Positions 16,938-45,238 of a DNA stretch of 64,000 nucleotides are shown here, in pieces (within the stretch, counting starts at the first letter, position 1; each line of letters starts with the position of its first letter). Under the pieces are notes generated by a model. It ran no database searches, was not told the DNA's origin, and saw nothing but the letters and a program-made list of their open reading frames with translations. Made by a program: the position numbers and the translations under genes. The DNA comes from Acidobacteriota bacterium (GTDB lineage: Bacteria > Acidobacteriota > UBA6911 > RPQK01 > JBOGJG01): contig JBOGJG010000277.1 of assembly GCA_050747825.1 (NCBI GenBank), forward strand, positions 9,791 to 73,790. The letters are read 5' to 3'.

Positions 16938-17012
16938 GCCGGCGTAGCTCAACGGTAGAGCGGCGCATTCGTAATGCGTAGGTTGTAGGTTCGATTCCTA
17001 TCGCCGGCTCCA
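16938..17012 (+). tRNA. tRNA-Thr (anticodon CGU)
   Basis: Folded by hand into a 75-nt cloverleaf: acceptor GCCGGCG/CGCCGGC, D arm GCTC-AACGGTA-GAGC, anticodon stem GCGCA/TGCGT with loop TTCGTAA (U33, anticodon CGT, A37), T arm GTAGG-TTCGATT-CCTAT, discriminator U, encoded CCA. Confidence 0.85.
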
Positions 17013-23923: not shown

Positions 23924-25066
23924 TTAGAGATGTTCTGCCAAGATTTGATACAGCCCTTTTACTTGAATTCTCTCTTTTGCCTGGGTCTTCAGGTGATGCA
24001 GGCAAAGAGGGTCTTCCGTGATCAGTAAATCGGCACCGGCGTGAGAGGCATCTTCAAAACGAGCCTGCGCCAATTTGGAAGCGATATCGGGTTGTGTGAA
24101 TTCGAGCCCACCCACAGCCCCGCACGGAGACGCGCGCTGCTCCCGCCAGAACAGAGGAGCGGAAGGTATTCCCAAAGCAGCCTCCAGGAGACGGCGGGGG
24201 GCTTGATGGTCCCGCTGAACCCGCGGCGAATGACAGGGATCGTGGTAGGCGTATCTGAGGCTTGGGGCCTGAGGGTTGGGGCCTGAGGGTTTGAGCTTTC
24301 CGTGGCAAAGCGATCCAGCCAGGAAGGAGGTCAGTTCGACCACTTCGACTTCCTCGGGAAAGAGGATATTCAGGCGCTCGATGTACAAGGTCTTAAAGGC
24401 GTAGAGGTCTCCGGGTGAAAGGACGAACAGCCTGCGGCAGCCGGAGTCCCGGACTTCATCGACAACCTCTCGAGCCAGTTTGGAAGCCGTGCCGGGCAGC
24501 CCCAGAGAACTGGCCAGGAATCCGGAAGAACGGCCGGCGCCAATCAAAACGGCCGAGATGCCGGCAGCCTTCAGAAGCTGAACTGCAGCCTCGAGTGTAG
24601 CCGGACTCAGGTGTTGTGCGGCGTCTCCAACAAACAGCGCCGTTTCCCCCCGCCCTTCCGCTCTTTGAGGCTTCTCCTCAGCATATGGATTCCGCCACTT
24701 CCGCAGTGCCTGATCAGCGACCGCCACCTGGGCAGGAGCCAGTCCCAACTCCACTACCTGAGCCCGGGCTGCGGCAATAGCAATGGGAAGCGGCTGGTCG
24801 GTGGCGCAGTGCGACCGGCACAATCCACAGTCCGCGCACTTGTAAAGCACATCGACCGTTTCTTCGTTCCATTGCAGGAGATTGCGCTTGACCGAAGAAA
24901 TGGTCAGAGCCCAACCGTGCGGAGTCAGCGTCTCGTTGTATGTGACGTTTCCGACCGGGCATACGTGCCGGCACATGAGGCTGAAACGGCACAGTTCCGT
25001 CGTAGCAAGGGGATCTTCAATGTAGGCTGGAGATCTTCTGTGCCTGAGACCGTCGTGATCGCTCAT
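23924..25066 (-). CDS. (Fe-S)-binding protein, GlcF-like (ferredoxin motif plus two CCG Cys-rich domains)
   Basis: CADCGLCRSHCATDQP matches the 4Fe-4S CxxCxxCxxxCP pattern. C-terminal YHDPCH and DPLCLHH Cys-rich repeats look like the glycolate-oxidase FeS subunit. Confidence 0.7.
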   Translation of the reverse strand: MSDHDGLRHRRSPAYIEDPLATTELCRFSLMCRHVCPVGNVTYNETLTPHGWALTISSVKRNLLQWNEETVDVLYKCADCGLCRSHCATDQPLPIAIAAARAQVVELGLAPAQVAVADQALRKWRNPYAEEKPQRAEGRGETALFVGDAAQHLSPATLEAAVQLLKAAGISAVLIGAGRSSGFLASSLGLPGTASKLAREVVDEVRDSGCRRLFVLSPGDLYAFKTLYIERLNILFPEEVEVVELTSFLAGSLCHGKLKPSGPNPQAPSLRYAYHDPCHSPRVQRDHQAPRRLLEAALGIPSAPLFWREQRASPCGAVGGLEFTQPDIASKLAQARFEDASHAGADLLITEDPLCLHHLKTQAKERIQVKGLYQILAEHL

Positions 25067-26523
25067 CTCTGCTTGACCCCGAACCCGACTTTTCCCGGAT
25101 TCATAATGCCGTTCGGGTCTATGGCATTCTTGATCGTCTCCAGCAATTCCCAGGAGGCCCCATACTGGGCGCGCATGAAGCGGCCCAGTTTCAATCCGAC
25201 GCCGTGGTGTTCATTGATCATGCCTCCATTATCCAGGGAAGCCTTCACGGCGGTGGCCCAGATCCGATTATGCAGCTTCAGAGCCTCTTCGGCCTCCTCA
25301 GGCGGAGTCTTGAGAATGAAACGGTCGTAAAGACTGGCACCCCAGGGAAACCAGTGGGAGAAATGCCCTATATAGCGAATGTCTAGGTCGCTGGAGAATT
25401 CCTCAATCGCCTTCTTCTTGGCGTAGTAGATCCTCTCGATATTATCGAAGGTCGAAATGGTCTCGACCGTCCCGTACATGCTGGGAAGCCCCAGCCCCAG
25501 CGGAGGGTAATAGAAATCGTAGCGGTGATTCCACCAGCGCTCGCCCGGGTCGCGTTCCAGATCCCTGGCGCCCAACTCCTTGCAGATGGCCAGGGCGCGC
25601 TTCTCCTGGGCGGCGGCAATTTCCGCCCATCCATCGAACCCGATGATCATGTAAGCCCCTTCCAATTCGTATCCCAGGACCTCCTTGACCAGCGAACCGG
25701 TCGAGCTCGGGTCATACATTCGGATCACCAGCGGGTTAAGCCGCTCGAGCATCATGCGTCGCCCCGCCTCCAGACCGGTTGCGATGTCCTTGAACAGCAT
25801 GGCTCGAAACAAGCGCACCTCAGGCAGCCGCTCGATCTGCATGGTGGCTTCGGTGATTACTCCGAATACACCCTCCGAACCCAGGAACAGCCGCATGAAA
25901 TCAGGACCCGAAGCGTGATTCGGCACTCCCGGCGTGCGGATGATGGAACCGTTGGGCAGCACTATTTCCATCCGCATGACCCGGTCTTCGGCCTTGCCGT
26001 ATTTCGTGCTGATGGTGCCCGAGCCACGAGGCGCCAGGTATCCGCCCAGAGTCGCGCAATTGGCCGACGCGGGATAATGAGGAAGGGTGAGCCCTTTCTC
26101 ATTAAGCGCCCACTCCAGTTGCGTTCCATTGATTCCGGCCTGGGCTGTAACGTAGAGTGATTTCTCATTGATCTCGAGAAGGCGGTCCAGCCGTTTTAAA
26201 TCGAGGAGAATGCCGCCATAAGTTGGAATAGCGCCGCCTTGAGTGCCGGAACCGCCCCCCCAGGGCACGACGGGAATGCCGTAGCTGTTGGCTATTTTCA
26301 GAATGGACGAAATCTCCTGTGCCGAACCTGGATGAACGATAAAATCCGCGGCGGCCGGCCGCAATCCCCGGTCCAGCCACATCTGAGACATCCACGACCA
26401 GTCGGTGGAGTAAACAAGACGGTCTGTGTCCTGAGTGGAAATGCGCCCGACGCCTACTACTTCCTCCAACTCGCTGAAGATCATTCCCTGCTGGAGAGTG
26501 GCCGGCGTAACGGTGTCTGGCAT
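25063..26523 (-). CDS. FAD-linked oxidase (GlcD/D-lactate dehydrogenase-like)
   Basis: 486 aa with an FAD-binding PCMH domain (VVPWGGGSGTQGGAIP, ...NEHHGVGLKL). Its stop overlaps the start of the downstream FeS gene. Confidence 0.75.
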   Translation of the reverse strand: MPDTVTPATLQQGMIFSELEEVVGVGRISTQDTDRLVYSTDWSWMSQMWLDRGLRPAAADFIVHPGSAQEISSILKIANSYGIPVVPWGGGSGTQGGAIPTYGGILLDLKRLDRLLEINEKSLYVTAQAGINGTQLEWALNEKGLTLPHYPASANCATLGGYLAPRGSGTISTKYGKAEDRVMRMEIVLPNGSIIRTPGVPNHASGPDFMRLFLGSEGVFGVITEATMQIERLPEVRLFRAMLFKDIATGLEAGRRMMLERLNPLVIRMYDPSSTGSLVKEVLGYELEGAYMIIGFDGWAEIAAAQEKRALAICKELGARDLERDPGERWWNHRYDFYYPPLGLGLPSMYGTVETISTFDNIERIYYAKKKAIEEFSSDLDIRYIGHFSHWFPWGASLYDRFILKTPPEEAEEALKLHNRIWATAVKASLDNGGMINEHHGVGLKLGRFMRAQYGASWELLETIKNAIDPNGIMNPGKVGFGVKQR

Positions 26524-27745: not shown

Positions 27746-29713
27746 TTGCGATTAAAACTCCCGCTGCTTTTTTCTTCCGCCCTGATTTTTCTGGTCATAG
27801 TCACCCTTGTCTTTCTCACGCGAAATCCATCGCGCTCGACTGATGTGGAGTGGCCAAACTATGGAGGGGACTCAGCCAATTCCAAGTATTCGCCTCTGGA
27901 TCAGATCCACCGGGACAACGCAAATCGCCTCCACATCGCCTGGCGATGGAGCTCTCCCGACAACGAAGTGTGGAAAGACAAGCCGGCACTTCGCCCCTTT
28001 GTATTCGAAGCCACGCCTTTAATGGTGGACGGCACACTTTACACCAGCACCTCTCTGAGCCAGGTGGCGGCGATCGATGCCGCAACGGGCGTTACTCGGT
28101 GGCTTTACGATCCAAGGAGCTATCAGTCAGATCATGCAGGCAATGTCGGTTTTGTAAACCGAGGTGTGGCTTACTGGAGTAATGGTGAGGAGCAGCGAAT
28201 CTTTCTGGGAACAGGAGACGGCCACCTCATTGCCCTGGACGCCCGCAGCGGAAAGCCGTATCCGCAGTTCGGCAAGAACGGCAGGATTGATTTGACGCTG
28301 GGACTGAGGCGTCCTATTGAGCGGCGCCACTACTCGGTCACCTCGCCTCCTATCGTCTGCCATGACGTCCTGATTGTGGGATCTTCCATCCCTGACCTGA
28401 TTCGAAGAAAAGAGACGCCGCCAGGTGACGTGCGCGGATTCGATGTCCGCACGGGTGAGTTGCTGTGGACATTCCACTCTGTCCCTCAAGCAGGTGAGTA
28501 CGGCAATGAGACCTGGAAAGAGGGCTCGTGGGAATATGCCGGCAACACCAACGTCTGGAGCGTCATGAGTGCGGACCAGGAACTGGGATACATTTACCTT
28601 CCCTTCAGCGCTCCTGCGAGCGATTACTACGGCGGCCCTCGCCCCGGAGACAACCTGTTCGCTAACAGCCTGGTCTGCCTCAACGCCAAAACAGGTGAGC
28701 GCGTGTGGCATTTTCAGACTGTCCATCACGACCTGTGGGACTATGACCTGGCCGCGGCCCCCAACCTGGTGAATATCACCGTTAGTGGCAAGGAAGTCAG
28801 AGCAGTGGCACAGGTGACCAAGCATGGATTCTGTTTTGTGTTCGATCGGATCACCGGCCGGCCGATCTGGCCTATCGAAGAACGGCCCGTTCCTCAGTCC
28901 AGACTCGAGGGGGAGGAAACTTCTCCCACTCAACCATTCCCCACCAGGCCGCCTCCTTTTGAACGGCAAGGATTGTCGGCCGCGGATTTGATCGACTTCG
29001 TTCCCGAACTACGCCAGGAGGCGCTGGACATCATTGAGCACTATGAGTACGGGCCGATGTTTACGCCGCCGGCTCTGAAGCCGACCGTCTACCTGCCAGG
29101 AAACGCCGGAGGCGCCAACTGGATGGGGGCCGCTTTCGACCCGTTGACAGGCACCCTGTACGTGCCGTCTATCAGCAGTCCGTATCTGATCGAGTTGGAA
29201 AAGCCGGACACCGCAGATTCTGAGCTCACTTACCAGCTCAAGGAAGAGACGCAACTACTGCTCAGCGGCTCCGCAGGACTGCCTCTCGTGAAGCCGCCTT
29301 ACTCGCGTGTTACCGCCATTGATCTCAATCGGGGGACGCACCTTTGGATGATTCCTTTCGGCGAAGGTCCTCGCCAGCATCCCCTATTAAAACATCTCGA
29401 GCTTCCGAAGCTCGGATCGGGAGCCCGCGCGTTTCTACTTCTGACCAGGACGTTGCTGTTTGCCGGTGAAGGAGCAAACAACGAGCGTCTGTTGGCCGGC
29501 ATCCGGGGAGAGCGGTATAGCGATTGTTGCAATAACCAGCCGAAATTCAGGGCCTTCGATAAAGCGACAGGCGAATTGATCTGGGAGATGGAGATACCCG
29601 GCCATGCCTCAGGTTCTCCCATGACTTACAGCGTGAATGGGAAGCAGTACATTGTGGTCGCTATCGGAGGACTTGAGGAACCGGCCGAGCTGCTGGCGCT
29701 GGCGTTGGATTAG
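27746..29713 (+). CDS. PQQ-dependent dehydrogenase (quinoprotein glucose/sugar dehydrogenase family), membrane-anchored
   Basis: 655 aa, one N-terminal TM, and PQQ beta-propeller W-motif repeats including HDLWDYDLAAAPNL, which resembles the membrane GDH active-site region. Confidence 0.75.
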   Translation: MRLKLPLLFSSALIFLVIVTLVFLTRNPSRSTDVEWPNYGGDSANSKYSPLDQIHRDNANRLHIAWRWSSPDNEVWKDKPALRPFVFEATPLMVDGTLYTSTSLSQVAAIDAATGVTRWLYDPRSYQSDHAGNVGFVNRGVAYWSNGEEQRIFLGTGDGHLIALDARSGKPYPQFGKNGRIDLTLGLRRPIERRHYSVTSPPIVCHDVLIVGSSIPDLIRRKETPPGDVRGFDVRTGELLWTFHSVPQAGEYGNETWKEGSWEYAGNTNVWSVMSADQELGYIYLPFSAPASDYYGGPRPGDNLFANSLVCLNAKTGERVWHFQTVHHDLWDYDLAAAPNLVNITVSGKEVRAVAQVTKHGFCFVFDRITGRPIWPIEERPVPQSRLEGEETSPTQPFPTRPPPFERQGLSAADLIDFVPELRQEALDIIEHYEYGPMFTPPALKPTVYLPGNAGGANWMGAAFDPLTGTLYVPSISSPYLIELEKPDTADSELTYQLKEETQLLLSGSAGLPLVKPPYSRVTAIDLNRGTHLWMIPFGEGPRQHPLLKHLELPKLGSGARAFLLLTRTLLFAGEGANNERLLAGIRGERYSDCCNNQPKFRAFDKATGELIWEMEIPGHASGSPMTYSVNGKQYIVVAIGGLEEPAELLALALD

Positions 29714-36954: not shown

Positions 36955-37554
36955 TCAGACTTCCACCGGCTTGACCGTTTGAAGAAAGGATCGAAAACTT
37001 TCCTCCCAGCGGCCTACGGTTGCCTCGGGTCCGGTCAGACGAAAGAACCAGGGGCCGGCTTGCGTTTCAACAATGGCCGCAATCATTCGATAATTGGGTC
37101 TGGGCTCGCCCGTAGACATCATCCCCATGGCGGGCCGATAGGTTCCGCTGATGTCGAGAATGGTCAGCGGTAGACCGTTGACTTCGCTCTTGCTCACTTC
37201 CCCCTTGGTCTCAGTTGGAGCTCCATCGGTCGTAAACTGGCCCGTCCAGCGGTCCAGGTTAGCCTGGATCGTTCCTCCTCCTCCTCCCTGGAAGAAGAAG
37301 ACGGCCACCTCGGCATCTTCGACGCCTGGCTCACCACTAGCCAACTGGTATTGGGCCCGGCGCATGGGTCCGGGATTCTGCTCACTCCATTCTTCCGGAG
37401 GGGCGAAGGTCAGGCTGGCCTCAGGCGATCCTGCTTCAGGTTCCAATACGCCTTCACGTGTTGCCGGGTCCGTACCCGCGTCGGTGCCGCAGTGGACCAA
37501 GCTAAGCAGTAGAAGAGCGCTCAAAAATAAAGCCTTGTAGTAATTGCGGTTCAT
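36955..37554 (-). CDS. Secreted/lipoprotein-like hypothetical protein
   Basis: Signal peptide ending ...LSLVHCGTD. Pro/Glu/Gly-rich linker after it. No known domain. Confidence 0.45.
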   Translation of the reverse strand: MNRNYYKALFLSALLLLSLVHCGTDAGTDPATREGVLEPEAGSPEASLTFAPPEEWSEQNPGPMRRAQYQLASGEPGVEDAEVAVFFFQGGGGGTIQANLDRWTGQFTTDGAPTETKGEVSKSEVNGLPLTILDISGTYRPAMGMMSTGEPRPNYRMIAAIVETQAGPWFFRLTGPEATVGRWEESFRSFLQTVKPVEV

Positions 37555-37565
37555 ATCAGGTGGTC

Positions 37566-37949
37566 CTAATCCAGCAGGGGAGTGCGGCCCGCAAATCCTG
37601 CATCAGTTTCATGCCAGAAATGAATATCGTCTTCTCCGTACTTCCAGCACAGGTATACCTCCCGGCCTCCTCGCAAGTGAGGAAAATCAATGAGTCCATC
37701 TTCGACGCTTTTAACCAGGCAGCCCGCTTCCTGAATCTTCCCCAGACACTGCTGAAGGGCCATCAGGAGTCGAACGTAAGTCGTTCCGCCGGGACTCCCG
37801 GCGTTGCTCTGAGCCGACTGCGCCAGTTTTTCTACCAGTCCCCGGTAGCTCTCCAGTTGCTCGGATAGCGCCATAGCCTGGCCTACAAGCTCGCGGACGA
37901 CAGGCAGGGCTTGCCGGGCTTCATCAATTGTGAAAAATCGCTTCTCCAT
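37566..37949 (-). CDS. DUF2203-family protein
   Basis: FTIDEARQALPVVRELV...DFP...GREVYLCWKYGEDDIHFWH matches the DUF2203 pattern as I recall it. Confidence 0.5.
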   Translation of the reverse strand: MEKRFFTIDEARQALPVVRELVGQAMALSEQLESYRGLVEKLAQSAQSNAGSPGGTTYVRLLMALQQCLGKIQEAGCLVKSVEDGLIDFPHLRGGREVYLCWKYGEDDIHFWHETDAGFAGRTPLLD

Positions 37950-37983: not shown

Positions 37984-38310
37984 TCAGCTAATCTTGTCGA
38001 TCTTAGCCGCCAGGATGAAATCATTCTCACTGAGACCGCCAATCTTATGCGTCCAGAGGGTGACCTGGACTTTTCCCCAAGCTAGGTAGATATCGGGGTG
38101 ATGGTCCTCTTCTTCGGCGATCTCTGCCACACGATTGACAAAATCGAGGGCCGTCTGAAAATCCGAAAATTTAAAACTCTTCTCGATGTGATGATTATCA
38201 ACCACCTGCCAGTTGCGAACCTTCTCTTCAAACAGCCTGATTTCCTCAGCCCTTAGCGCTTCGGTTTCGCCCGAGCAGGCAGTGCATTTTTTCTCGGCTA
38301 GCCCAGCCAT
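37984..38310 (-). CDS. Pterin-4a-carbinolamine dehydratase
   Basis: 108 aa. [EDKH]-x(3)-H-[HN]-P motif region EEDHHPD and the family's conserved length and fold pattern. Confidence 0.75.
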   Translation of the reverse strand: MAGLAEKKCTACSGETEALRAEEIRLFEEKVRNWQVVDNHHIEKSFKFSDFQTALDFVNRVAEIAEEEDHHPDIYLAWGKVQVTLWTHKIGGLSENDFILAAKIDKIS

Positions 38311-38352: not shown

Positions 38353-38386
38353 AAAAAAAAGCCCGCGGGAAGCGGGCCTTTTCTTT
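38353..38386 (-). terminator. Rho-independent terminator downstream of the radical SAM gene
   Basis: Read on the minus strand: GGCCCGC-TTCCC-GCGGGC followed by a T8 run. Sits between the radical SAM stop (38410) and the next gene's start. Confidence 0.65.
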
Positions 38387-38409: not shown

Positions 38410-40428
38410 TTACAGGCCAAGCTCGACCAAGTCGTCCTTCTTCTTTTTCTTGAGCACCATCTCTTCGTAGTACTCGCGGACCTGAGCTGCCTCCTTGGCA
38501 GCCTTGCGGCGAAGCAGCTTTTCGTCACGGGCCGTCTGCGGCAACTCACCCTTGTCTTTTAGGCGGGCCACGTCTTCAACGTTGAGCCTGAGCGAGTGCT
38601 CATAACTTTGCAGATTTACATTGTTACCCCCGGCAAAGATCTCATGGCGTCCGTTGTCTTCGTACCACTTGGCGACGGTTGCATTCATGTGCATGTGCTC
38701 GATGATATTGCGCCAGCCATGGCCCGTGTTGTAGGCGCAAAAGGAAATCTCACCTTCCTGAGTAGCGTAGGGGATGATGCACATCTCGGTCCGGCGAAAG
38801 TCGTAGTTGAAAAGATCCTGGAACCACATGCCTGCGATGAAGAGAAAGTTCCAGCGATCGTTGCGACGCTCTTCCGGCGTCACCCCGTAATTCTTGCCGG
38901 TCAAGCCAAAGCTCTTATCAAACTTCTTCAGAATGTCCAGAAGAGTCAGGTTTGATGGAGACTTGAACGGTTTGTAGTGCTTGAGCAACGCCAGGCCCAT
39001 CATCAAATTGGAGAAATTCTTGCTGCGGGCCGCATCCGTCAGCTTGCGCATGTCGGCGACCAATCCGGGAATATCAAGGAACTGAGGAACGGGAGCAGCC
39101 TCTTTGGTCTCCTTGTCGATCATCACGGCCGTTCCCACGCCGCAGTTGGGGTGGCAACCACAGCTCACCTGACCCCAGTCGGCATTGGGCCCATGCACTA
39201 GATCTGCAAAATCGGCAAAGGCACCCATCAGAGAAAGGGGAAACCAGTCTCGAGTGGGTTCAGTCATCCCCGTCTGCCTTTTCACATCGAGCGCCATATG
39301 GGAAAGCGTGTAGCGCTGGCGCAGCCGGCGCTCATCGGTAATGGCCTCATCACGGCCGGTGAAAGAGACCGGTTGGAAAGAAATGAAGGCAACCTTCTTG
39401 GGATTGTCCATGGCAAAGCGGATAATGGGCCCGACCTGGTCGTTGTTGACATCGTTGACCAGGGTGGTGACCAGGACGATCTCGATTCCCGCCGCGTGAA
39501 TATTGTCGATAGCCTTGAGCTTCACATCAAAGAGGTTGCCGATGTGACGGTGACTGTTGGCGTCATTGCCGATGCCGTCGAACTGCAGATAGGTGTAGCG
39601 CAGACCGGCTTCGGCCGCTTTGTGCGCAAAATCCAGGCTCTTGGCAAATTCAATTCCATTGGTCGCGCACTGCACGCTGTTGTAGCCGATCTTGCGCGCG
39701 TATTTAATGGCGCGGAAAAAGTGGGGAGACAGCGTCGGCTCGCCGCCTGAAAACTGTACCGACATCTGCCGGCGCGGCTTAATTTGCAGGGCATTGTCTA
39801 GAATCTCTTTGATTTCCTCCCACTCCAGCTCATGGACAAAACCTACCTGGTTGGCGTCCATGAAACAGGGATCACACATCATATTGCAGCGATTGGTGAG
39901 ATCGACGGTCAGCACCGATCCGCGACCATGCTTAATGGTGCTGGAGCCATGATTGTGCAATGTCTCATCGTTGTGGGCTCGAATGTCACGGCCGGGGAAA
40001 TTGGACTCGATCCACTTGAGAAATTTGGAATCGATGGCCATGATGTCCTCGAATTTCCCATGTTGAGGGCAATCCTTGACCATCCATACCTGGCCGTCGC
40101 GTTCGATAATCTGGGCTTTGACTTCTCCCACCTTTTCCTCTTTAAGGATTCGGTAGTCCTCATTGCCCTTCAAGATTTTCGCGCGCACCTCGACCACACA
40201 TTTAGGGCACAGAGAATCGGTTTCACGAGGCCAGCCGAGATTCGGCTTGGACTTCTCCCACGATTTCAACAGCGGCTTGTCGGACCAGCGCGGAGTAAAT
40301 GATGGGTTGGGCCTGTATTTATTGAAAAACTGGATAGCGTCGAAAGCTTTGCCCGCCGTAAAGCACAGGACCGAGTCGAGGCATTTGACAGCGGTTTTGG
40401 AAACGCTCCTGGGCATAAGTTCTTCCAC
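38410..40428 (-). CDS. Radical SAM protein, tetraether-lipid-synthase (Tes/GDGT-MAS)-like architecture
   Basis: 672 aa. N-terminal Cys/His ribbon (CPKC...46 aa...CPQH), radical SAM cluster motif TNRCNMMCDPCF (CxxxCxxC), and two more Cys clusters further C-terminal (SCGCHPNCG; C...C near residue 570). The Tes-like call is an inference from architecture. Confidence 0.6.
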   Translation of the reverse strand: MEELMPRSVSKTAVKCLDSVLCFTAGKAFDAIQFFNKYRPNPSFTPRWSDKPLLKSWEKSKPNLGWPRETDSLCPKCVVEVRAKILKGNEDYRILKEEKVGEVKAQIIERDGQVWMVKDCPQHGKFEDIMAIDSKFLKWIESNFPGRDIRAHNDETLHNHGSSTIKHGRGSVLTVDLTNRCNMMCDPCFMDANQVGFVHELEWEEIKEILDNALQIKPRRQMSVQFSGGEPTLSPHFFRAIKYARKIGYNSVQCATNGIEFAKSLDFAHKAAEAGLRYTYLQFDGIGNDANSHRHIGNLFDVKLKAIDNIHAAGIEIVLVTTLVNDVNNDQVGPIIRFAMDNPKKVAFISFQPVSFTGRDEAITDERRLRQRYTLSHMALDVKRQTGMTEPTRDWFPLSLMGAFADFADLVHGPNADWGQVSCGCHPNCGVGTAVMIDKETKEAAPVPQFLDIPGLVADMRKLTDAARSKNFSNLMMGLALLKHYKPFKSPSNLTLLDILKKFDKSFGLTGKNYGVTPEERRNDRWNFLFIAGMWFQDLFNYDFRRTEMCIIPYATQEGEISFCAYNTGHGWRNIIEHMHMNATVAKWYEDNGRHEIFAGGNNVNLQSYEHSLRLNVEDVARLKDKGELPQTARDEKLLRRKAAKEAAQVREYYEEMVLKKKKKDDLVELGL

Positions 40429-40586
40429 CTTTCTTTGCTTGAATTTGCTCTAAAAAGGCAAGTATCAGTCCCGCCGCATGACAGCGTCAACACAACTCCC
40501 TTCAGTCTGATGGCAAGGTTCGGATTTTTTTTAAAAAGTGATCCTATTTCCCTTCGCCCCAATGTTTTTGGTAAAATTAGGTCTCA

Positions 40587-41183
40587 ATGTTAACGATTAC
40601 TCGAGAAGCAAGAGATCAAATTCTGGCTGCTATGAAGGAGCAGGAACCCGGCAGGACCGCCGTCCGCGTGATGGCCCAGATCAGTGGGCTGGACTTTACT
40701 TACGGTATGAAACTGATCGGCCCGGAAGAGAAGAACGCTGAAGACGTGGCCATCCCTGAGGATGGCTTCGACGTGGTGATGGATGCCAAGAGCGCCGAGC
40801 ATCTCGAAGGAGCCACCCTGGATTTCGAAGATGGTATCCTGAAAAGCGGATTCAAGTTCAACAATCCTAACAAGCCGGAAGTCCCCTCCATTGGCGGAGG
40901 TCCGCGTCCTGATCTGGCGGGCCCTGTCGCCGAAAGGGTGCAGATGTTGATCGATACCGAGTTGAATCCGGCCGTGGCCGCTCACGGGGGGAAAATGAGC
41001 CTCCTCGGCGTTCGCGATGATAAAGCTTACCTGACGTTCGGAGGAGGCTGCCATGGCTGCGGGATGGTGGACGTCACCCTTAAGCAGGGAGTCGAAGCCA
41101 GAATTCGGGAGCTCATCCCTGAGATTCAGGAAGTCGTGGACGTGACCGACCACAGCACCGGCGAAAATCCCTTCTATCGTTAA
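40587..41183 (+). CDS. nfuA: NfuA-type Fe-S cluster biogenesis protein (degenerate A-type-carrier domain plus Nfu domain)
   Basis: N-terminal HesB-like domain without Cys ligands and a C-terminal Nfu domain with GGGCHGCGM (CxxC). Confidence 0.75.
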   Translation: MLTITREARDQILAAMKEQEPGRTAVRVMAQISGLDFTYGMKLIGPEEKNAEDVAIPEDGFDVVMDAKSAEHLEGATLDFEDGILKSGFKFNNPNKPEVPSIGGGPRPDLAGPVAERVQMLIDTELNPAVAAHGGKMSLLGVRDDKAYLTFGGGCHGCGMVDVTLKQGVEARIRELIPEIQEVVDVTDHSTGENPFYR

Positions 41184-43690: not shown

Positions 43691-43721
43691 TTGGAATTGA
43701 ATTCGAGGGACGAATGGGGAA

Positions 43722-43750
43722 GGAGCGCGTTGCTCGCAGCAACGCGCTCC
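43722..43750 (+). other. Perfect 13-bp GC-rich stem-loop in the porin 5' leader
   Basis: GGAGCGCGTTGCT-CGC-AGCAACGCGCTCC. A further 7-bp hairpin (GACTCTC-tatttg-GAGAGTC) sits at about 43793-43812. The leader from -10 to the ATG is roughly 195 nt. Confidence 0.5.
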
Positions 43751-43852
43751 CGTTGGCGCCAGGTTTTGCTCGTTTCCAACGCCGTCCTCAGTATAAGGAC
43801 TCTCTATTTGGAGAGTCAAACGTCCCTCCTCACTAAACAGAAGGAGGAGAAG

Positions 43853-45238
43853 ATGAGGAATTATTGGTTTGGTTTTCGGGGTGCGGCCAGAGCATGGCTT
43901 CTGCTGTATGTGGTCTGGTCAACGGCGGGGGCGGTCTGGGGCGCTCAACGAGACGAGGCGGATGAATTGAAAGCCAGAATCGAGGAGTTGGAGAAACGCC
44001 TGGGGCAGTTGGAAACAAAGGAGGAGGCGCCCGCTTCTGAGAGAACCGTCAATGTGGAAGAATTAAGGCGCCAACTGGACATCCTGGCCCAGGAAGTCGA
44101 AAGGATGCGTGCCGGAGAGCAGAAGATAGAGCTAAGCGAGGCGCAAAAACGGGGACTGGGACTGGCCCCTTCGGCGGGAGCGACTTACGAGAGGCGACAG
44201 GGAATTTCCCTTTCCGGCTACGGAGAGATGCTCTACCAGAATCGCGATGATGAGAATGAAAGCGGGTTACCCAGTTCAGATGACACTCGACTCGACTTTC
44301 TCAGGCACGTCTTCTACATGGGATATCGTTTCAGCGACAAACTGATTTTCAATTCGGAAATCGAAGTCGAGCACGCCAATGAGATCGGCGTCGAGTTCGC
44401 CTATATCGATTTTCTGGCCAACGAACATATCGGCCTGCGAGGCGGAATGTTGCTGCTTCCTATGGGCCTCACCAACGAGTTCCATGAACCAAATGTCTTC
44501 CTGGGAGCCAAGCGTCCTGAGACGGAGACCCGGATCATCCCCTCCACCTGGCGGGAGAACGGATTTGGAGTGGTCGGCAGGGCCGGAATCTTTAACTACC
44601 GCGCTTACGTTGTCAACGGACTCAACGCCGCCAATTTCAGCGCCAGCGGTATCAGAGGCGGGCGCCAGAAAGGCAGCCAGGCCAGGGCGCAGGATCTGGC
44701 CTTTGTGGGACGCCTTGACGTCAACCCTACCCCCGGCGTCTTCTTTGGCGGATCACTTTACCGGGGCGGCTCGGATCAGGGGCAATTCGAGGTAAGCGGC
44801 AGCGAGTTGAGCGTCGATACACTCATCGGGGAAGTGCATGGACAGGTTCAAGTCCGGGGTCTGGATCTCAGGGGCCTTTACGCACAGGCCCAACTGGACG
44901 ATGTCGCCGGCCTGAATTTGGCCCTGGGCCGGTCAGGCTCACAGGCGATTGCCCAGACTATGGAGGGCGGCTATTTGCAGTTTGGGTATAACGTCCTCTC
45001 CCAGCATACAGAGCGGTTTCGGCTGACGCCTTATTACCGGCTCGAAATGGTGGATACTCAGGCCGAGCTCCCGGCCGGCTTCACCTCCAATGAGGCGCAG
45101 GACGGCATTTTTCATACCATGGGATTCGAGTTTCGTCCCATTCACGGCGTGGTGGTCAAGACCGACTACCAGTGGATACGCAATGAGGCAAATAGCGGGC
45201 TGAATCAGTTCAATGTAAACCTGGGCTATGCCTTTTGA
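43853..45238 (+). CDS. Outer-membrane porin with N-terminal coiled coil (OprO/P- or DcaP-like)
   Basis: Signal peptide, an approximately 70-aa heptad coiled coil, then an amphipathic beta-strand barrel ending ...NVNLGYAF (C-terminal Phe). Start set at MRNYWFG with an AAGGAGGAG SD. Confidence 0.6.
   Translation: MRNYWFGFRGAARAWLLLYVVWSTAGAVWGAQRDEADELKARIEELEKRLGQLETKEEAPASERTVNVEELRRQLDILAQEVERMRAGEQKIELSEAQKRGLGLAPSAGATYERRQGISLSGYGEMLYQNRDDENESGLPSSDDTRLDFLRHVFYMGYRFSDKLIFNSEIEVEHANEIGVEFAYIDFLANEHIGLRGGMLLLPMGLTNEFHEPNVFLGAKRPETETRIIPSTWRENGFGVVGRAGIFNYRAYVVNGLNAANFSASGIRGGRQKGSQARAQDLAFVGRLDVNPTPGVFFGGSLYRGGSDQGQFEVSGSELSVDTLIGEVHGQVQVRGLDLRGLYAQAQLDDVAGLNLALGRSGSQAIAQTMEGGYLQFGYNVLSQHTERFRLTPYYRLEMVDTQAELPAGFTSNEAQDGIFHTMGFEFRPIHGVVVKTDYQWIRNEANSGLNQFNVNLGYAF

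What the first reader, a model, noticed from the sequence alone, without database searches (positions are those of the whole stretch)
38410..40428. A 672-aa radical SAM enzyme with the multi-cluster architecture of tetraether lipid synthase (Tes/GDGT-MAS)
The protein has four Cys-containing segments in a characteristic order. First comes an N-terminal ribbon, CPKC...CPQH, which could hold a rubredoxin-like mononuclear metal. Next is the radical SAM motif CNMMCDPC. Then come two further Cys clusters, SCGCHPNCG and C...C near residue 570. This layout of a rubredoxin-like site, a radical SAM cluster and auxiliary [4Fe-4S] clusters is what has been described structurally for the archaeal tetraether (GDGT/macrocyclic archaeol) synthase. 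Bacterial homologues in Acidobacteria are the leading candidates for making branched GDGT membrane-spanning lipids. The gene is monocistronic with its own strong terminator (38353-38386). It is divergent from nfuA, an Fe-S delivery protein, which fits an enzyme holding three or more clusters.
Basis: partly seen in the sequence, partly recalled or inferred. Interest (0 to 1): 0.55.

Follow-up and report, generated by a model that had tools for sequence, protein, structure and literature searches.

The report
Long-form bacterial Tes-like radical SAM enzyme
This gene encodes a bacterial relative of the archaeal enzyme that joins two lipid tails into a membrane-spanning lipid, but it belongs to a distinct, very conserved and untested bacterial branch that has lost one of that enzyme's three iron-sulfur clusters.

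Summary
The ORF, its four Cys segments, its terminator and the divergent nfuA-like gene are all real. The start is more likely the ATG at 40416 (668 aa) than the GTG at 40428.

It is not a canonical Tes. It scores 338 bits against NCBIfam's 450-bit cutoff. It also lacks all three Cys of the N-terminal auxiliary [4Fe-4S] cluster.

The catalytic parts are kept: the RS motif, the SAM loop, the [4Fe-4S]C cysteines, Met439 and Tyr459.

The gene belongs to a tight clade of about 650-730 aa (median 71% pairwise identity) found in at least 593 species genomes of Acidobacteriota, Gemmatimonadota and others. No neighbouring gene is conserved across the clade.

The most likely function is tail-to-tail coupling of lipid chains (iso-diabolic acid or brGDGT type). 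This is inferred. I found no published test of any bacterial Tes homologue.

The parts
38410..40416 (-). Likely CDS of the long-form Tes-like radical SAM protein: 668 aa from the ATG at 40416. Residue numbers in this report count from the GTG.
   Evidence: ORF list. GGTGG lies 8 nt upstream of the ATG. An identical 668-aa NCBI protein, P0001, exists.
40219..40416 (-). N-terminal extension (residues 5-70), absent from MJ0619/GDGT-MAS. The model shows a long helix (11-36) followed by an ordered coil.
   Evidence: Not covered by the 7TOL alignment. pLDDT is mostly 87-97. Residues 31-60 are 80% conserved in the clade.
40036..40215 (-). Rubredoxin-like / zinc-ribbon domain (residues 72-131) with C74, C77, C120 and H123. 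This is a predicted mononuclear metal site. The spacer between the two halves is 42 residues, against 20 in MJ0619.
   Evidence: Pfam PF23545 Zn_ribbon_HMPTM, E=1.6e-16. C120 and H123 align with MJ0619 C33 and H36; C74 and C77 lie upstream of the residue-level alignment and are matched to C9 and C12 by motif. All four are invariant in 77 orthologues.
39913..39987 (-). Degenerate N-terminal auxiliary-cluster segment (residues 148-172). The CPxxCGxC..H motif of [4Fe-4S]N is replaced by AHNDETLHNHGSSTIKH. It has no Cys, and H152, H158 and H160 are invariant.
   Evidence: MJ0619 C73/C77/C80 align to gap/S162/T164. All long-clade members share this state, while canonical relatives keep the Cys motif. 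The His triad is invariant.
39349..39912 (-). Radical SAM core (residues 173-360), with C181-X3-C185-X2-C188 and the SAM-binding loop FQPVSFTGR (Q352, S355, R359).
   Evidence: Pfam PF04055, E=6e-20. Alignment to MJ0619 C98/C102/C105 and Q268/S271/R275.
38704..39246 (-). C-terminal auxiliary-cluster ([4Fe-4S]C) and lipid-pocket domain (residues 395-575). It holds C423, C425, H426, C429, M534 (= Met439), C550, Y554 (= Tyr459) and C564.
   Evidence: Alignment to 7TOL. All are invariant in 77 orthologues. The paper's main text does not name which Cys ligate the cluster, so that assignment is inferred from conservation.
38413..38703 (-). C-terminal tail (residues 576-672), absent from MJ0619. Residues 576-600 are well conserved. 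Residues 601-672 form a poorly conserved, highly charged helix that ends in a Lys run.
   Evidence: Conservation of 0.3-0.5 over residues 601-672. pLDDT of 41-84 over the same stretch.
38353..38386 (-). Intrinsic terminator after the gene: A-tract, GC-rich hairpin, then T8. It looks bidirectional.
   Evidence: Sequence. The scan found the + strand version. RNA fold of -22.7 kcal/mol, z=-3.55.
40461..40490 (-). Sigma-70-like promoter match (TTGACG, 18 nt, GATACT), about 45 nt upstream of the ATG. This is a consensus match only.
40587..41183 (+). Divergent NfuA-like Fe-S carrier gene. It is a neighbour in this lineage only and is not part of a conserved system.
   Evidence: Pfam Fe-S_biosyn + NifU. 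Present near the orthologue in only 4-7 of 80 loci.

Best explanation
The gene encodes a long-form bacterial member of the Tes/GDGT-MAS superfamily of radical SAM enzymes. The predicted cofactors are one rubredoxin-like mononuclear metal (C74, C77, C120, H123), the radical-SAM [4Fe-4S] cluster (C181, C185, C188) and one auxiliary [4Fe-4S] cluster in the C-terminal domain (C429, C550, C564, with M534 as the labile ligand and two extra invariant Cys, C423 and C425). The surface-exposed N-terminal auxiliary cluster of the archaeal enzyme is absent.

The most likely function uses the Tes mechanism. A 5'-deoxyadenosyl radical abstracts H from the terminal carbon of one lipid chain. The substrate radical is parked as a C-S adduct on the C-terminal cluster. 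A second SAM activates a second chain, which attacks that carbon to form a C(sp3)-C(sp3) bond. In a bacterial host the likely substrates are iso-branched acyl or alkyl glycerolipids such as iso-C15. Their chain termini are described as structurally identical to the phytanyl terminus. The product would be a membrane-spanning lipid of the iso-diabolic acid or brGDGT type.

Shown here: the homology, the fold, and the retention or loss of each metal site. Inferred: the substrate, the product and the mechanism.

For: Catalytic parts retained and invariant in 77 orthologues: the RS motif, the SAM loop Q352/S355/R359, the [4Fe-4S]C cysteines, Met439 (M534) and Tyr459 (Y554). The paper reports the last two as completely conserved in 1000 archaeal homologues. 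The cluster that carries the C-S intermediate is the C-terminal one, which is kept. The lost N-cluster lies on the protein surface, and the authors suggest only that the auxiliary cofactors might tune redox potentials and electron transfer.

Strong purifying selection: median 71% pairwise identity across several phyla.

Distribution fits lineages reported to make iso-diabolic acid. The clade is in Terriglobia, Solibacteraceae and Pyrinomonadaceae/Blastocatellia MAGs. Acidobacteria subdivisions 1, 3, 4 and 6 make iso-diabolic acid. Over 40% of the membrane lipid of the obligate aerobe Pyrinomonas is ether lipids plus membrane-spanning iso-diabolic acid.

The coupling enzyme in Acidobacteria is still unknown. 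No Mss homologue was found in the acidobacterial genomes surveyed, and Tes homologues were found in only 3 of 14 producers at a >=30% identity threshold. S. usitatus has a second Tes homologue, Acid_2410 (714 aa, 30.1% identity, 4e-62), which sits on that threshold and matches this clade in length and divergence.
Against: No biochemical or genetic test of any bacterial Tes homologue was found. The protein fails the curated Tes equivalog cutoff and lacks one of the defining cofactors. Gene context is uninformative: no lipid gene is nearby, and no neighbour is conserved in more than 18 of 80 loci. The clade is also common in Gemmatimonadota and Eisenbacteria, and one literature search found no report of membrane-spanning lipids for Gemmatimonadota. 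I could not show that a cultured iso-diabolic-acid producer carries this exact clade. Seven clade-specific invariant histidines hint at a difference from canonical Tes that I cannot explain.
Confidence: 0.5

Rival explanations
1. It is a Tes-superfamily paralogue that has diverged to a different reaction or substrate. Examples would be another C-H functionalisation of a membrane lipid, or a non-lipid substrate. It would use the same RS and C-terminal cluster scaffold but would not make membrane-spanning lipids.
For: It is below the equivalog cutoff (338 against 450 bits) and only 28-39% identical to canonical Tes-like proteins. It has lost [4Fe-4S]N and gained seven invariant His, two extra invariant Cys next to the C-cluster, and conserved N-terminal and proximal C-terminal extensions. 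It occurs in phyla with no reported membrane-spanning lipids. In archaea a second Tes paralogue, MA_1114, made no GDGT and only traces of macrocyclic archaeol. The unusually high conservation is atypical of the canonical Tes-like group, whose median identity is 37%.
Against: Every residue known to matter around the Tes active site is kept: the SAM loop, Met439, Tyr459 and the C-cluster Cys. The whole GDGT-MAS fold, including the lipid-pocket domain, superposes. No alternative family scores better.
Confidence: 0.38
2. It is a true archaeal-type tetraether synthase, condensing isoprenoid diether lipids (archaeol) into GDGT or macrocyclic archaeol in this bacterium.
For: It is homologous to GDGT-MAS. 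JGI labels some clade members 'tetraether lipid synthase'.
Against: No bacterium has been shown to make isoprenoid GDGTs. The protein fails the Tes equivalog cutoff and lacks [4Fe-4S]N. No archaeal-lipid pathway gene was found among the window ORFs scanned.
Confidence: 0.03
3. It is a pterin C-methyltransferase (7,8-dihydro-6-hydroxymethylpterin dimethyltransferase, HMPTM). This is the legacy annotation of MJ0619 that JGI and some NCBI records still apply to clade members.
For: The legacy name is propagated to clade members. A pterin-4a-carbinolamine dehydratase gene lies immediately downstream in this window.
Against: MJ0619 (UniProt HMPTM_METJA) was shown structurally and biochemically to be the tetraether synthase. 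The pterin gene is a neighbour in only 2 of 80 orthologue loci, and the strong terminator lies between the two genes.
Confidence: 0.03
4. It is a member of another large radical SAM family: TrsS, YgiQ/UPF0313, HpnJ or another B12-dependent rSAM, or a SPASM maturase.
For: TrsS is the second-best NCBIfam hit (228 bits), and SPASM or NirJ-type models hit the RS core weakly.
Confidence: 0.01

Closest known systems
GDGT-MAS / tetraether synthase Tes (MJ0619, PDB 7TOL/7TOM; MA_1486; NCBIfam NF045702)
   Different: Identity is 35%, and the score is 338 bits against a 450-bit cutoff. The N-terminal auxiliary [4Fe-4S] cluster is absent (Cys replaced by gap/Ser/Thr). The clade has seven invariant His, including a triad in that segment, and a CxCxxxC motif where MJ0619 has a single Cys. 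The rubredoxin spacer is 42 residues rather than 20. It has about 70 extra N-terminal and about 100 extra C-terminal residues. The host is bacterial and, from neighbouring genes, probably aerobic. The substrate is unknown.
Bacterial 'Tes homologues' proposed for brGDGT synthesis: S. usitatus Acid_5929 (545 aa, 40% identity to MA_1486) and Acid_2410 (714 aa, 30%), and the E. aggregans homologue (32%)
   Same: It falls in the same literature category, an uncharacterised bacterial Tes homologue from Acidobacteriota. Its length and divergence match the Acid_2410 type.
   Different: The papers I read do not separate the canonical type, which keeps the N-cluster, from the long type, which lacks it. 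This protein is the long type. I could not align Acid_2410 itself, so that assignment is inferred.
Mss, the bacterial membrane-spanning lipid synthase (Thermotoga maritima, Thermoanaerobacter ethanolicus)
   Same: It is also a radical SAM enzyme with a proposed tail-to-tail C-C coupling of fatty acyl chains. Its catalytic architecture is reported to resemble that of Tes.
   Different: Mss is only remotely related to Tes, has been found only in anaerobes, and is reported absent from Acidobacteria. No Mss sequence was available to compare here.
TrsS radical SAM (seleno)protein (NCBIfam NF045646)
   Same: It shares the N-terminal zinc-ribbon and RS core (228 bits over residues 102-388).
   Different: The score is far below the 490-bit cutoff, and the C-terminal domain does not match.

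Membership tests
Tes / GDGT-MAS (tetraether lipid synthase) | Full-length sequence and fold homology to the characterised enzyme | tested here: met
Tes / GDGT-MAS (tetraether lipid synthase) | Score at or above the curated equivalog cutoff of NF045702 (450 bits) | tested here: not met
   337.8 bits. Long-clade relatives score 299-414 bits. Canonical relatives score 432-645 bits.
Tes / GDGT-MAS (tetraether lipid synthase) | Radical SAM CX3CX2C cluster and SAM-binding loop (Q268, S271, R275) | tested here: met
   C181, C185 and C188; Q352, S355 and R359. The Cys are invariant in the clade.
Tes / GDGT-MAS (tetraether lipid synthase) | Rubredoxin-like mononuclear site CX2C...CX2H | tested here: met
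   C74, C77, C120 and H123. Pfam PF23545, E=1.6e-16. Invariant in the clade. Metal occupancy was not testable.
Tes / GDGT-MAS (tetraether lipid synthase) | N-terminal auxiliary [4Fe-4S]N ligated by C73, C77, C80 and a His | tested here: not met
   The aligned positions are gap, S162 and T164. There is no Cys in residues 121-180. All long-clade members share this state, while canonical relatives keep CPxxCGxC.
Tes / GDGT-MAS (tetraether lipid synthase) | C-terminal auxiliary [4Fe-4S]C with labile Met439 and conserved Tyr459 | tested here: met
   C429, C550, C564, M534 and Y554 align and are invariant. Which Cys are the ligands is inferred from conservation.
Tes / GDGT-MAS (tetraether lipid synthase) | Catalyses C(sp3)-C(sp3) coupling of two lipid chain termini | not testable with these tools
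   This needs expression with lipid analysis, or in vitro assay. No published test of a bacterial homologue was found.
Mss (bacterial membrane-spanning lipid synthase) | Homology to the confirmed T. maritima / T. ethanolicus Mss (e<=1e-50, >=30% identity in the defining paper) | not tested
   No Mss sequence or profile is available in the tools. The paper reports no Mss homologues in the acidobacterial genomes it surveyed, and calls Mss only remotely related to Tes.
TrsS radical SAM (seleno)protein | Score at or above the NF045646 cutoff (490 bits), full-length | tested here: not met
   228.4 bits, over residues 102-388 only.
HMPTM pterin dimethyltransferase (legacy annotation of MJ0619) | Functional link to pterin or methanopterin biosynthesis | tested here: not met
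   The pterin-4a dehydratase neighbour occurs in only 2 of 80 loci. The founding member was re-assigned to lipid synthesis.
YgiQ/UPF0313, HpnJ and other B12-binding radical SAM enzymes | B12-binding or YgiQ-specific domains, or best profile match to those families | tested here: not met
   No such Pfam or NCBIfam hit at E<=1.

The most novel reading that the evidence does not exclude
This long-form clade, rather than canonical Tes or Mss, is the missing tail-to-tail coupling enzyme that makes iso-diabolic acid and brGDGT backbones in aerobic Acidobacteria. Published gene surveys would have under-counted it because it sits on their 30%-identity threshold. Its loss of the surface-exposed [4Fe-4S]N, possibly replaced by a His-based site, would be an adaptation to oxygen. 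If so, Gemmatimonadota and other soil phyla that carry it would be unrecognised producers of membrane-spanning lipids.
Probability: 0.3. Interest if true: 0.8.

Novelty: new variant of a known kind. Interest (0 to 1): 0.45.

Why it matters
brGDGTs are among the most widely used terrestrial palaeotemperature and pH proxies. The organisms and enzymes that build their membrane-spanning backbone in aerobic soils are still not established. Mss accounts for anaerobes but is reported absent from Acidobacteria. Canonical Tes homologues are reported in only a few producers.

The clade described here is discrete, extremely conserved and very widespread, and it keeps the Tes catalytic centre. That makes it a concrete gene to test by knockout or heterologous expression. 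It also shows that gene surveys using a 30% identity cutoff, or NCBIfam's Tes model, will miss or split this group.

For enzymology, the clade is a natural variant of Tes without the N-terminal auxiliary cluster. It could therefore show what that cluster is needed for.

Tried and rejected
- **Conserved context:** I clustered ORFs from 80 orthologue loci. No neighbour is shared by more than 18 loci. The common ones look, by eye only, like SurE-, Pcm-, QueG-, DedA- and PGM-type housekeeping genes. This rejects the nfuA (4-7 of 80) and pterin dehydratase (2 of 80) links.
- **Lipid genes in the window:** none was found among the 30 window ORFs scanned against Pfam. They are housekeeping and aerobic-metabolism genes.
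- **A replacement Cys site for the lost N-cluster:** C16, C22 and C254 are not conserved, so this is rejected.
- **Cultured strains carrying the clade:**
  - Two further homologue searches, seeded from Solibacteraceae and Pyrinomonadaceae orthologues, returned only unnamed or MAG-labelled proteins.
  - The cluster look-up gave no organism names.
  - Table S21 of Sahonero-Canavesi et al. is not held as text.
  - The AFDB50 fold library was unavailable.
- **Literature search for Acid_2410, Acid_5929, Q025C7 or Q01U00:** no papers found.
- **Geometry of the His triad and the extra Cys:** model coordinates are not exposed to scripts, so this could not be measured.
- **Rfam:** only one tRNA in the window and nothing near the gene.
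Full report
**1. Observation**

The ORF at 38410..40428 (-) exists and translates to 672 aa from a GTG start. It has 14 cysteines.
- C74-x2-C77 ... C120-x2-H123
- C181-x3-C185-x2-C188
- C423-x-C425-x3-C429
- C550 ... C564

These 11 Cys and H123 are invariant in 77 orthologues from other genomes. C16, C22 and C254 are not conserved. The pattern is therefore a conserved feature and not a chance arrangement.

The start codon needs a correction. The GTG lies inside a GGTGG ribosome-binding motif, and the ATG at 40416 follows that motif by 8 nt. The identical NCBI protein from an Acidobacteriota MAG (GCA_975374895.1) is 668 aa and starts at that ATG.

The terminator is real. An A-tract, a GC-rich hairpin and T8 lie at 38353-38386 on the gene's strand, beginning 27 nt after the stop codon. 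It folds at -22.7 kcal/mol, z=-3.55. A sigma-70-like promoter match lies about 45 nt upstream of the ATG. The divergent neighbour at 40587..41183 carries Fe-S_biosyn and NifU domains, so it is NfuA-like.

**2. What the protein is**

Pfam finds the radical SAM core (residues 177-339, E=6e-20) and the HMPTM-type zinc ribbon (E=1.6e-16). NCBIfam's best model is tetraether lipid synthase Tes (NF045702), with E=9.6e-101 over model positions 2-482 of 486. The score is 337.8 bits, below the curated 450-bit cutoff. TrsS is second at 228 bits, against a cutoff of 490, and covers only the N-terminal half.

Among solved structures, the only full-length match is GDGT-MAS from M. jannaschii (7TOL/7TOM). 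It gives E=1.5e-68 and 35% identity over 454 aligned columns. An AlphaFold model built on a 30-sequence alignment is confident (pLDDT 88, pTM 0.88). It superposes on GDGT-MAS as follows:
- Foldseek: TM 0.90 normalised to the target, rmsd 2.9 A.

**3. Cofactor sites, one by one**

The ligands of GDGT-MAS are given in Lloyd et al. 2022 (PMC9433317). My residue numbering from the alignment reproduces theirs exactly.

| Site in GDGT-MAS | MJ0619 residues | Query residues | State |
|---|---|---|---|
| Rubredoxin-like metal | C9, C12, C33, H36 | C74, C77, C120, H123 | Kept; spacer 42 residues rather than 20 |
| RS cluster | C98, C102, C105 | C181, C185, C188 | Kept |
| SAM loop | Q268, S271, R275 | Q352, S355, R359 | Kept; the FQPVSFTGR motif is identical |
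| [4Fe-4S]C | C338, C455, C470, labile Met439; Tyr459 nearby | C429, C550, C564, M534; Y554 | Kept; extra invariant C423 and C425 |
| [4Fe-4S]N | C73, C77, C80 and a His | gap, S162, T164 (H167, not conserved) | Cys ligands absent |

Three qualifications apply.
- C120 and H123 are aligned residue by residue. C74 and C77 lie upstream of that alignment and are matched to C9 and C12 by motif and by the Pfam zinc-ribbon hit.
- The paper's main text does not name the [4Fe-4S]C cysteines, so that assignment is inferred from alignment and conservation.
- There is no Cys anywhere in residues 121-180.

The enzyme is predicted to hold two [4Fe-4S] clusters plus one mononuclear metal, not three or more clusters.

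The cluster that is kept is the one that matters for the chemistry. In GDGT-MAS the substrate radical forms a C-S adduct with [4Fe-4S]C. [4Fe-4S]N sits on the protein surface, and the authors suggest only that the auxiliary cofactors might tune redox potentials and electron transfer.

**4. A distinct subfamily**

An exhaustive HMMER search of 1.84 billion cluster representatives gave 568 hits at E<=1e-30. I aligned 30 full-length sequences (the query, four close relatives and 25 representatives), and the main patterns are three:
- **Long clade (about 650-730 aa), which includes the query.** It has no N-cluster Cys. It carries AHNDxxLHNHGSS in that segment and CxCHPxC in the C-cluster domain.
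- **Canonical Tes-like proteins (495-680 aa).** They carry CPxxCGxC..H.
- **A third set.** These lack both auxiliary sites.

NCBIfam Tes scores follow the same split. Canonical proteins score 432-645 bits, and most pass the cutoff. Long-clade proteins score 299-414 bits. The third set scores 239-251 bits.

The 77 long-clade orthologues are 61-99% identical to one another, with a median of 71%. Canonical representatives have a median of 37%. Long-clade and canonical proteins are 28-39% identical to each other.

Seven histidines are invariant in the core clade and are not conserved in canonical proteins: H152, H158, H160, H199, H293, H377 and H595.

The extensions behave differently:
- The N-terminal extension is conserved and confidently modelled.
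- The proximal C-terminal region (residues 576-600) is conserved.
- The last 70 residues are variable and highly charged.

**5. Distribution and context**

The best 80 come from:
- Acidobacteriota: Terriglobia, Solibacteraceae, Sulfopaludibacter, Acidiferrales, Pyrinomonadaceae/Blastocatellia, Chloracidobacterium, Aridibacter
- Gemmatimonadota
- Eisenbacteria

A few MAGs carry other labels. All 80 are 68-82% identical to the query.

I clustered the ORFs of these 80 loci. No neighbouring gene is shared by more than 18 loci, and the shared ones look like housekeeping genes within single lineages. NfuA is nearby in 4-7 loci and the pterin-4a-carbinolamine dehydratase in 2. The gene is free-standing, and its neighbours carry no functional signal.

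None of the 30 window ORFs I scanned against Pfam is a lipid-pathway gene. They include a PQQ dehydrogenase, ferrochelatase, 6PGD, GroEL and SMC. NCBI's gene calls on the matching MAG contig add a heme A synthase next to ferrochelatase. Together these suggest an aerobic host.

**6. Function**

The most likely activity is Tes-type tail-to-tail C-C coupling of two lipid chains to give a membrane-spanning lipid. In a bacterium this would be the iso-diabolic acid or brGDGT backbone, built from iso-C15 chains. Zeng et al. describe the tails of iso-branched fatty acids and of archaeal isoprenoid lipids as structurally identical.

Evidence in favour:
- The active-site elements are all retained (section 3).
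- Purifying selection is strong (section 4).
- The clade occurs in lineages whose cultured members make iso-diabolic acid. These include the obligately aerobic Pyrinomonas, in which over 40% of membrane lipid is ether lipids plus membrane-spanning iso-diabolic acid.
- The acidobacterial coupling enzyme is still unidentified. Mss was not found in the acidobacterial genomes surveyed. Tes homologues were reported in only 3 of 14 producers, at thresholds of >=30% identity and <=1e-50.
- Halamka et al. list two Tes homologues in S. usitatus: Acid_5929 (545 aa, 40.2% identity, 1e-139) and Acid_2410 (714 aa, 30.1% identity, 4e-62). The second matches the long clade in length and divergence and sits right on the survey threshold. 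The single E. aggregans homologue (32%, 4e-61) looks similar. The long clade may therefore have been under-counted.

Evidence against:
- None of this is a functional test. Papers up to 2026 state that the activity of bacterial Tes homologues is unconfirmed, and targeted searches found no experiment.
- I could not align Acid_2410 or any sequence from a cultured strain.
- The clade's abundance in Gemmatimonadota, where one literature search found no report of membrane-spanning lipids, is either a prediction or a warning.
- The clade-specific histidines and the unusual degree of conservation leave room for a diverged function.

My confidence is about 0.97 that this is a member of the Tes superfamily. 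It is about 0.5 for lipid tail-to-tail coupling and about 0.38 for a different reaction on the same scaffold. The remaining alternatives are minor: archaeal-type GDGT synthesis, the legacy pterin methylase annotation, and other radical SAM families.

**7. Novelty and verdict**

Three points were not in the papers I could read:
- This gene belongs to a discrete long-form subfamily that lacks [4Fe-4S]N and fails the curated Tes model.
- The subfamily is extremely conserved and widespread across soil phyla.
- Its neighbours, including nfuA, are irrelevant to its function.

I rate it a new variant of a known kind, of moderate interest. It gives a well-defined experimental target for an open question, but by itself it provides no functional evidence.

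Noticed in passing
window 38410-40428 (-): residues H152, H158, H160, H199, H293, H377, H595: Seven histidines are invariant in 77 long-clade orthologues and are not conserved in canonical Tes-like proteins (mostly Y/F at 199, K/Q at 293, D at 377). Three of them form a triad exactly where the lost [4Fe-4S]N motif used to be. They could form a His-based metal site, but this is unexplained.
   Followed up: partly
window 37984-38310 (-): A pterin-4a-carbinolamine dehydratase gene lies immediately downstream of a protein whose family was once annotated as a pterin dimethyltransferase (HMPTM). The adjacency occurs in only 2 of 80 orthologue loci, and the terminator lies between the two genes, so it looks coincidental.
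   Followed up: yes
window 37566-37949 (-); also L002, L021, L028, L031, L063, L070: A DUF2203 gene lies within the 8-kb flanks of the Tes-like gene in 6-8 of 80 loci, and several of those loci are not close relatives of the window. This is about as frequent as NfuA but spread over more distant lineages. It is still weak, and the function is unknown.
   Followed up: partly
L012, L063, L066, L073: Some long-clade orthologues (69-72% identical) sit on contigs whose MAGs are labelled Acidimicrobiia (a 1.1-Mb contig), Saccharimonadales, Xenobia and Clostridia. These could reflect horizontal transfer, mis-binning or mislabelled MAGs.
   Followed up: no
P0132, P0139, P0178: A third group of Tes-like proteins (about 540-625 aa, 239-251 bits on the Tes model for the two scored) keeps the rubredoxin-like site and the RS motif. 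It lacks the N-cluster Cys and also most of the C-cluster positions, including the Met and Tyr. These presumably carry out different chemistry.
   Followed up: no
window 43691-45238 (+) and 36955-37554 (-): Two sizeable ORFs (515 aa and 199 aa) have no Pfam hit. The 515-aa protein has a coiled-coil-like N-terminal part and ends in Phe, as many outer-membrane beta-barrel proteins do. The 199-aa protein has a lipoprotein-like signal sequence (LLSLVHC).
   Followed up: no
window 23924-26523 (-) and 27746-29713 (+): A gene pair resembling glycolate or D-lactate oxidase (FAD_binding_4/FAD-oxidase_C plus a CCG cysteine-rich subunit) and a PQQ-dependent dehydrogenase. With the heme A synthase called on the matching MAG contig, these point to an aerobic lifestyle for a host that carries an oxygen-sensitive radical SAM enzyme.
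   Followed up: no
window 16938-17009 (+): A single tRNA gene is the only Rfam match in the whole 64-kb window.
   Followed up: no
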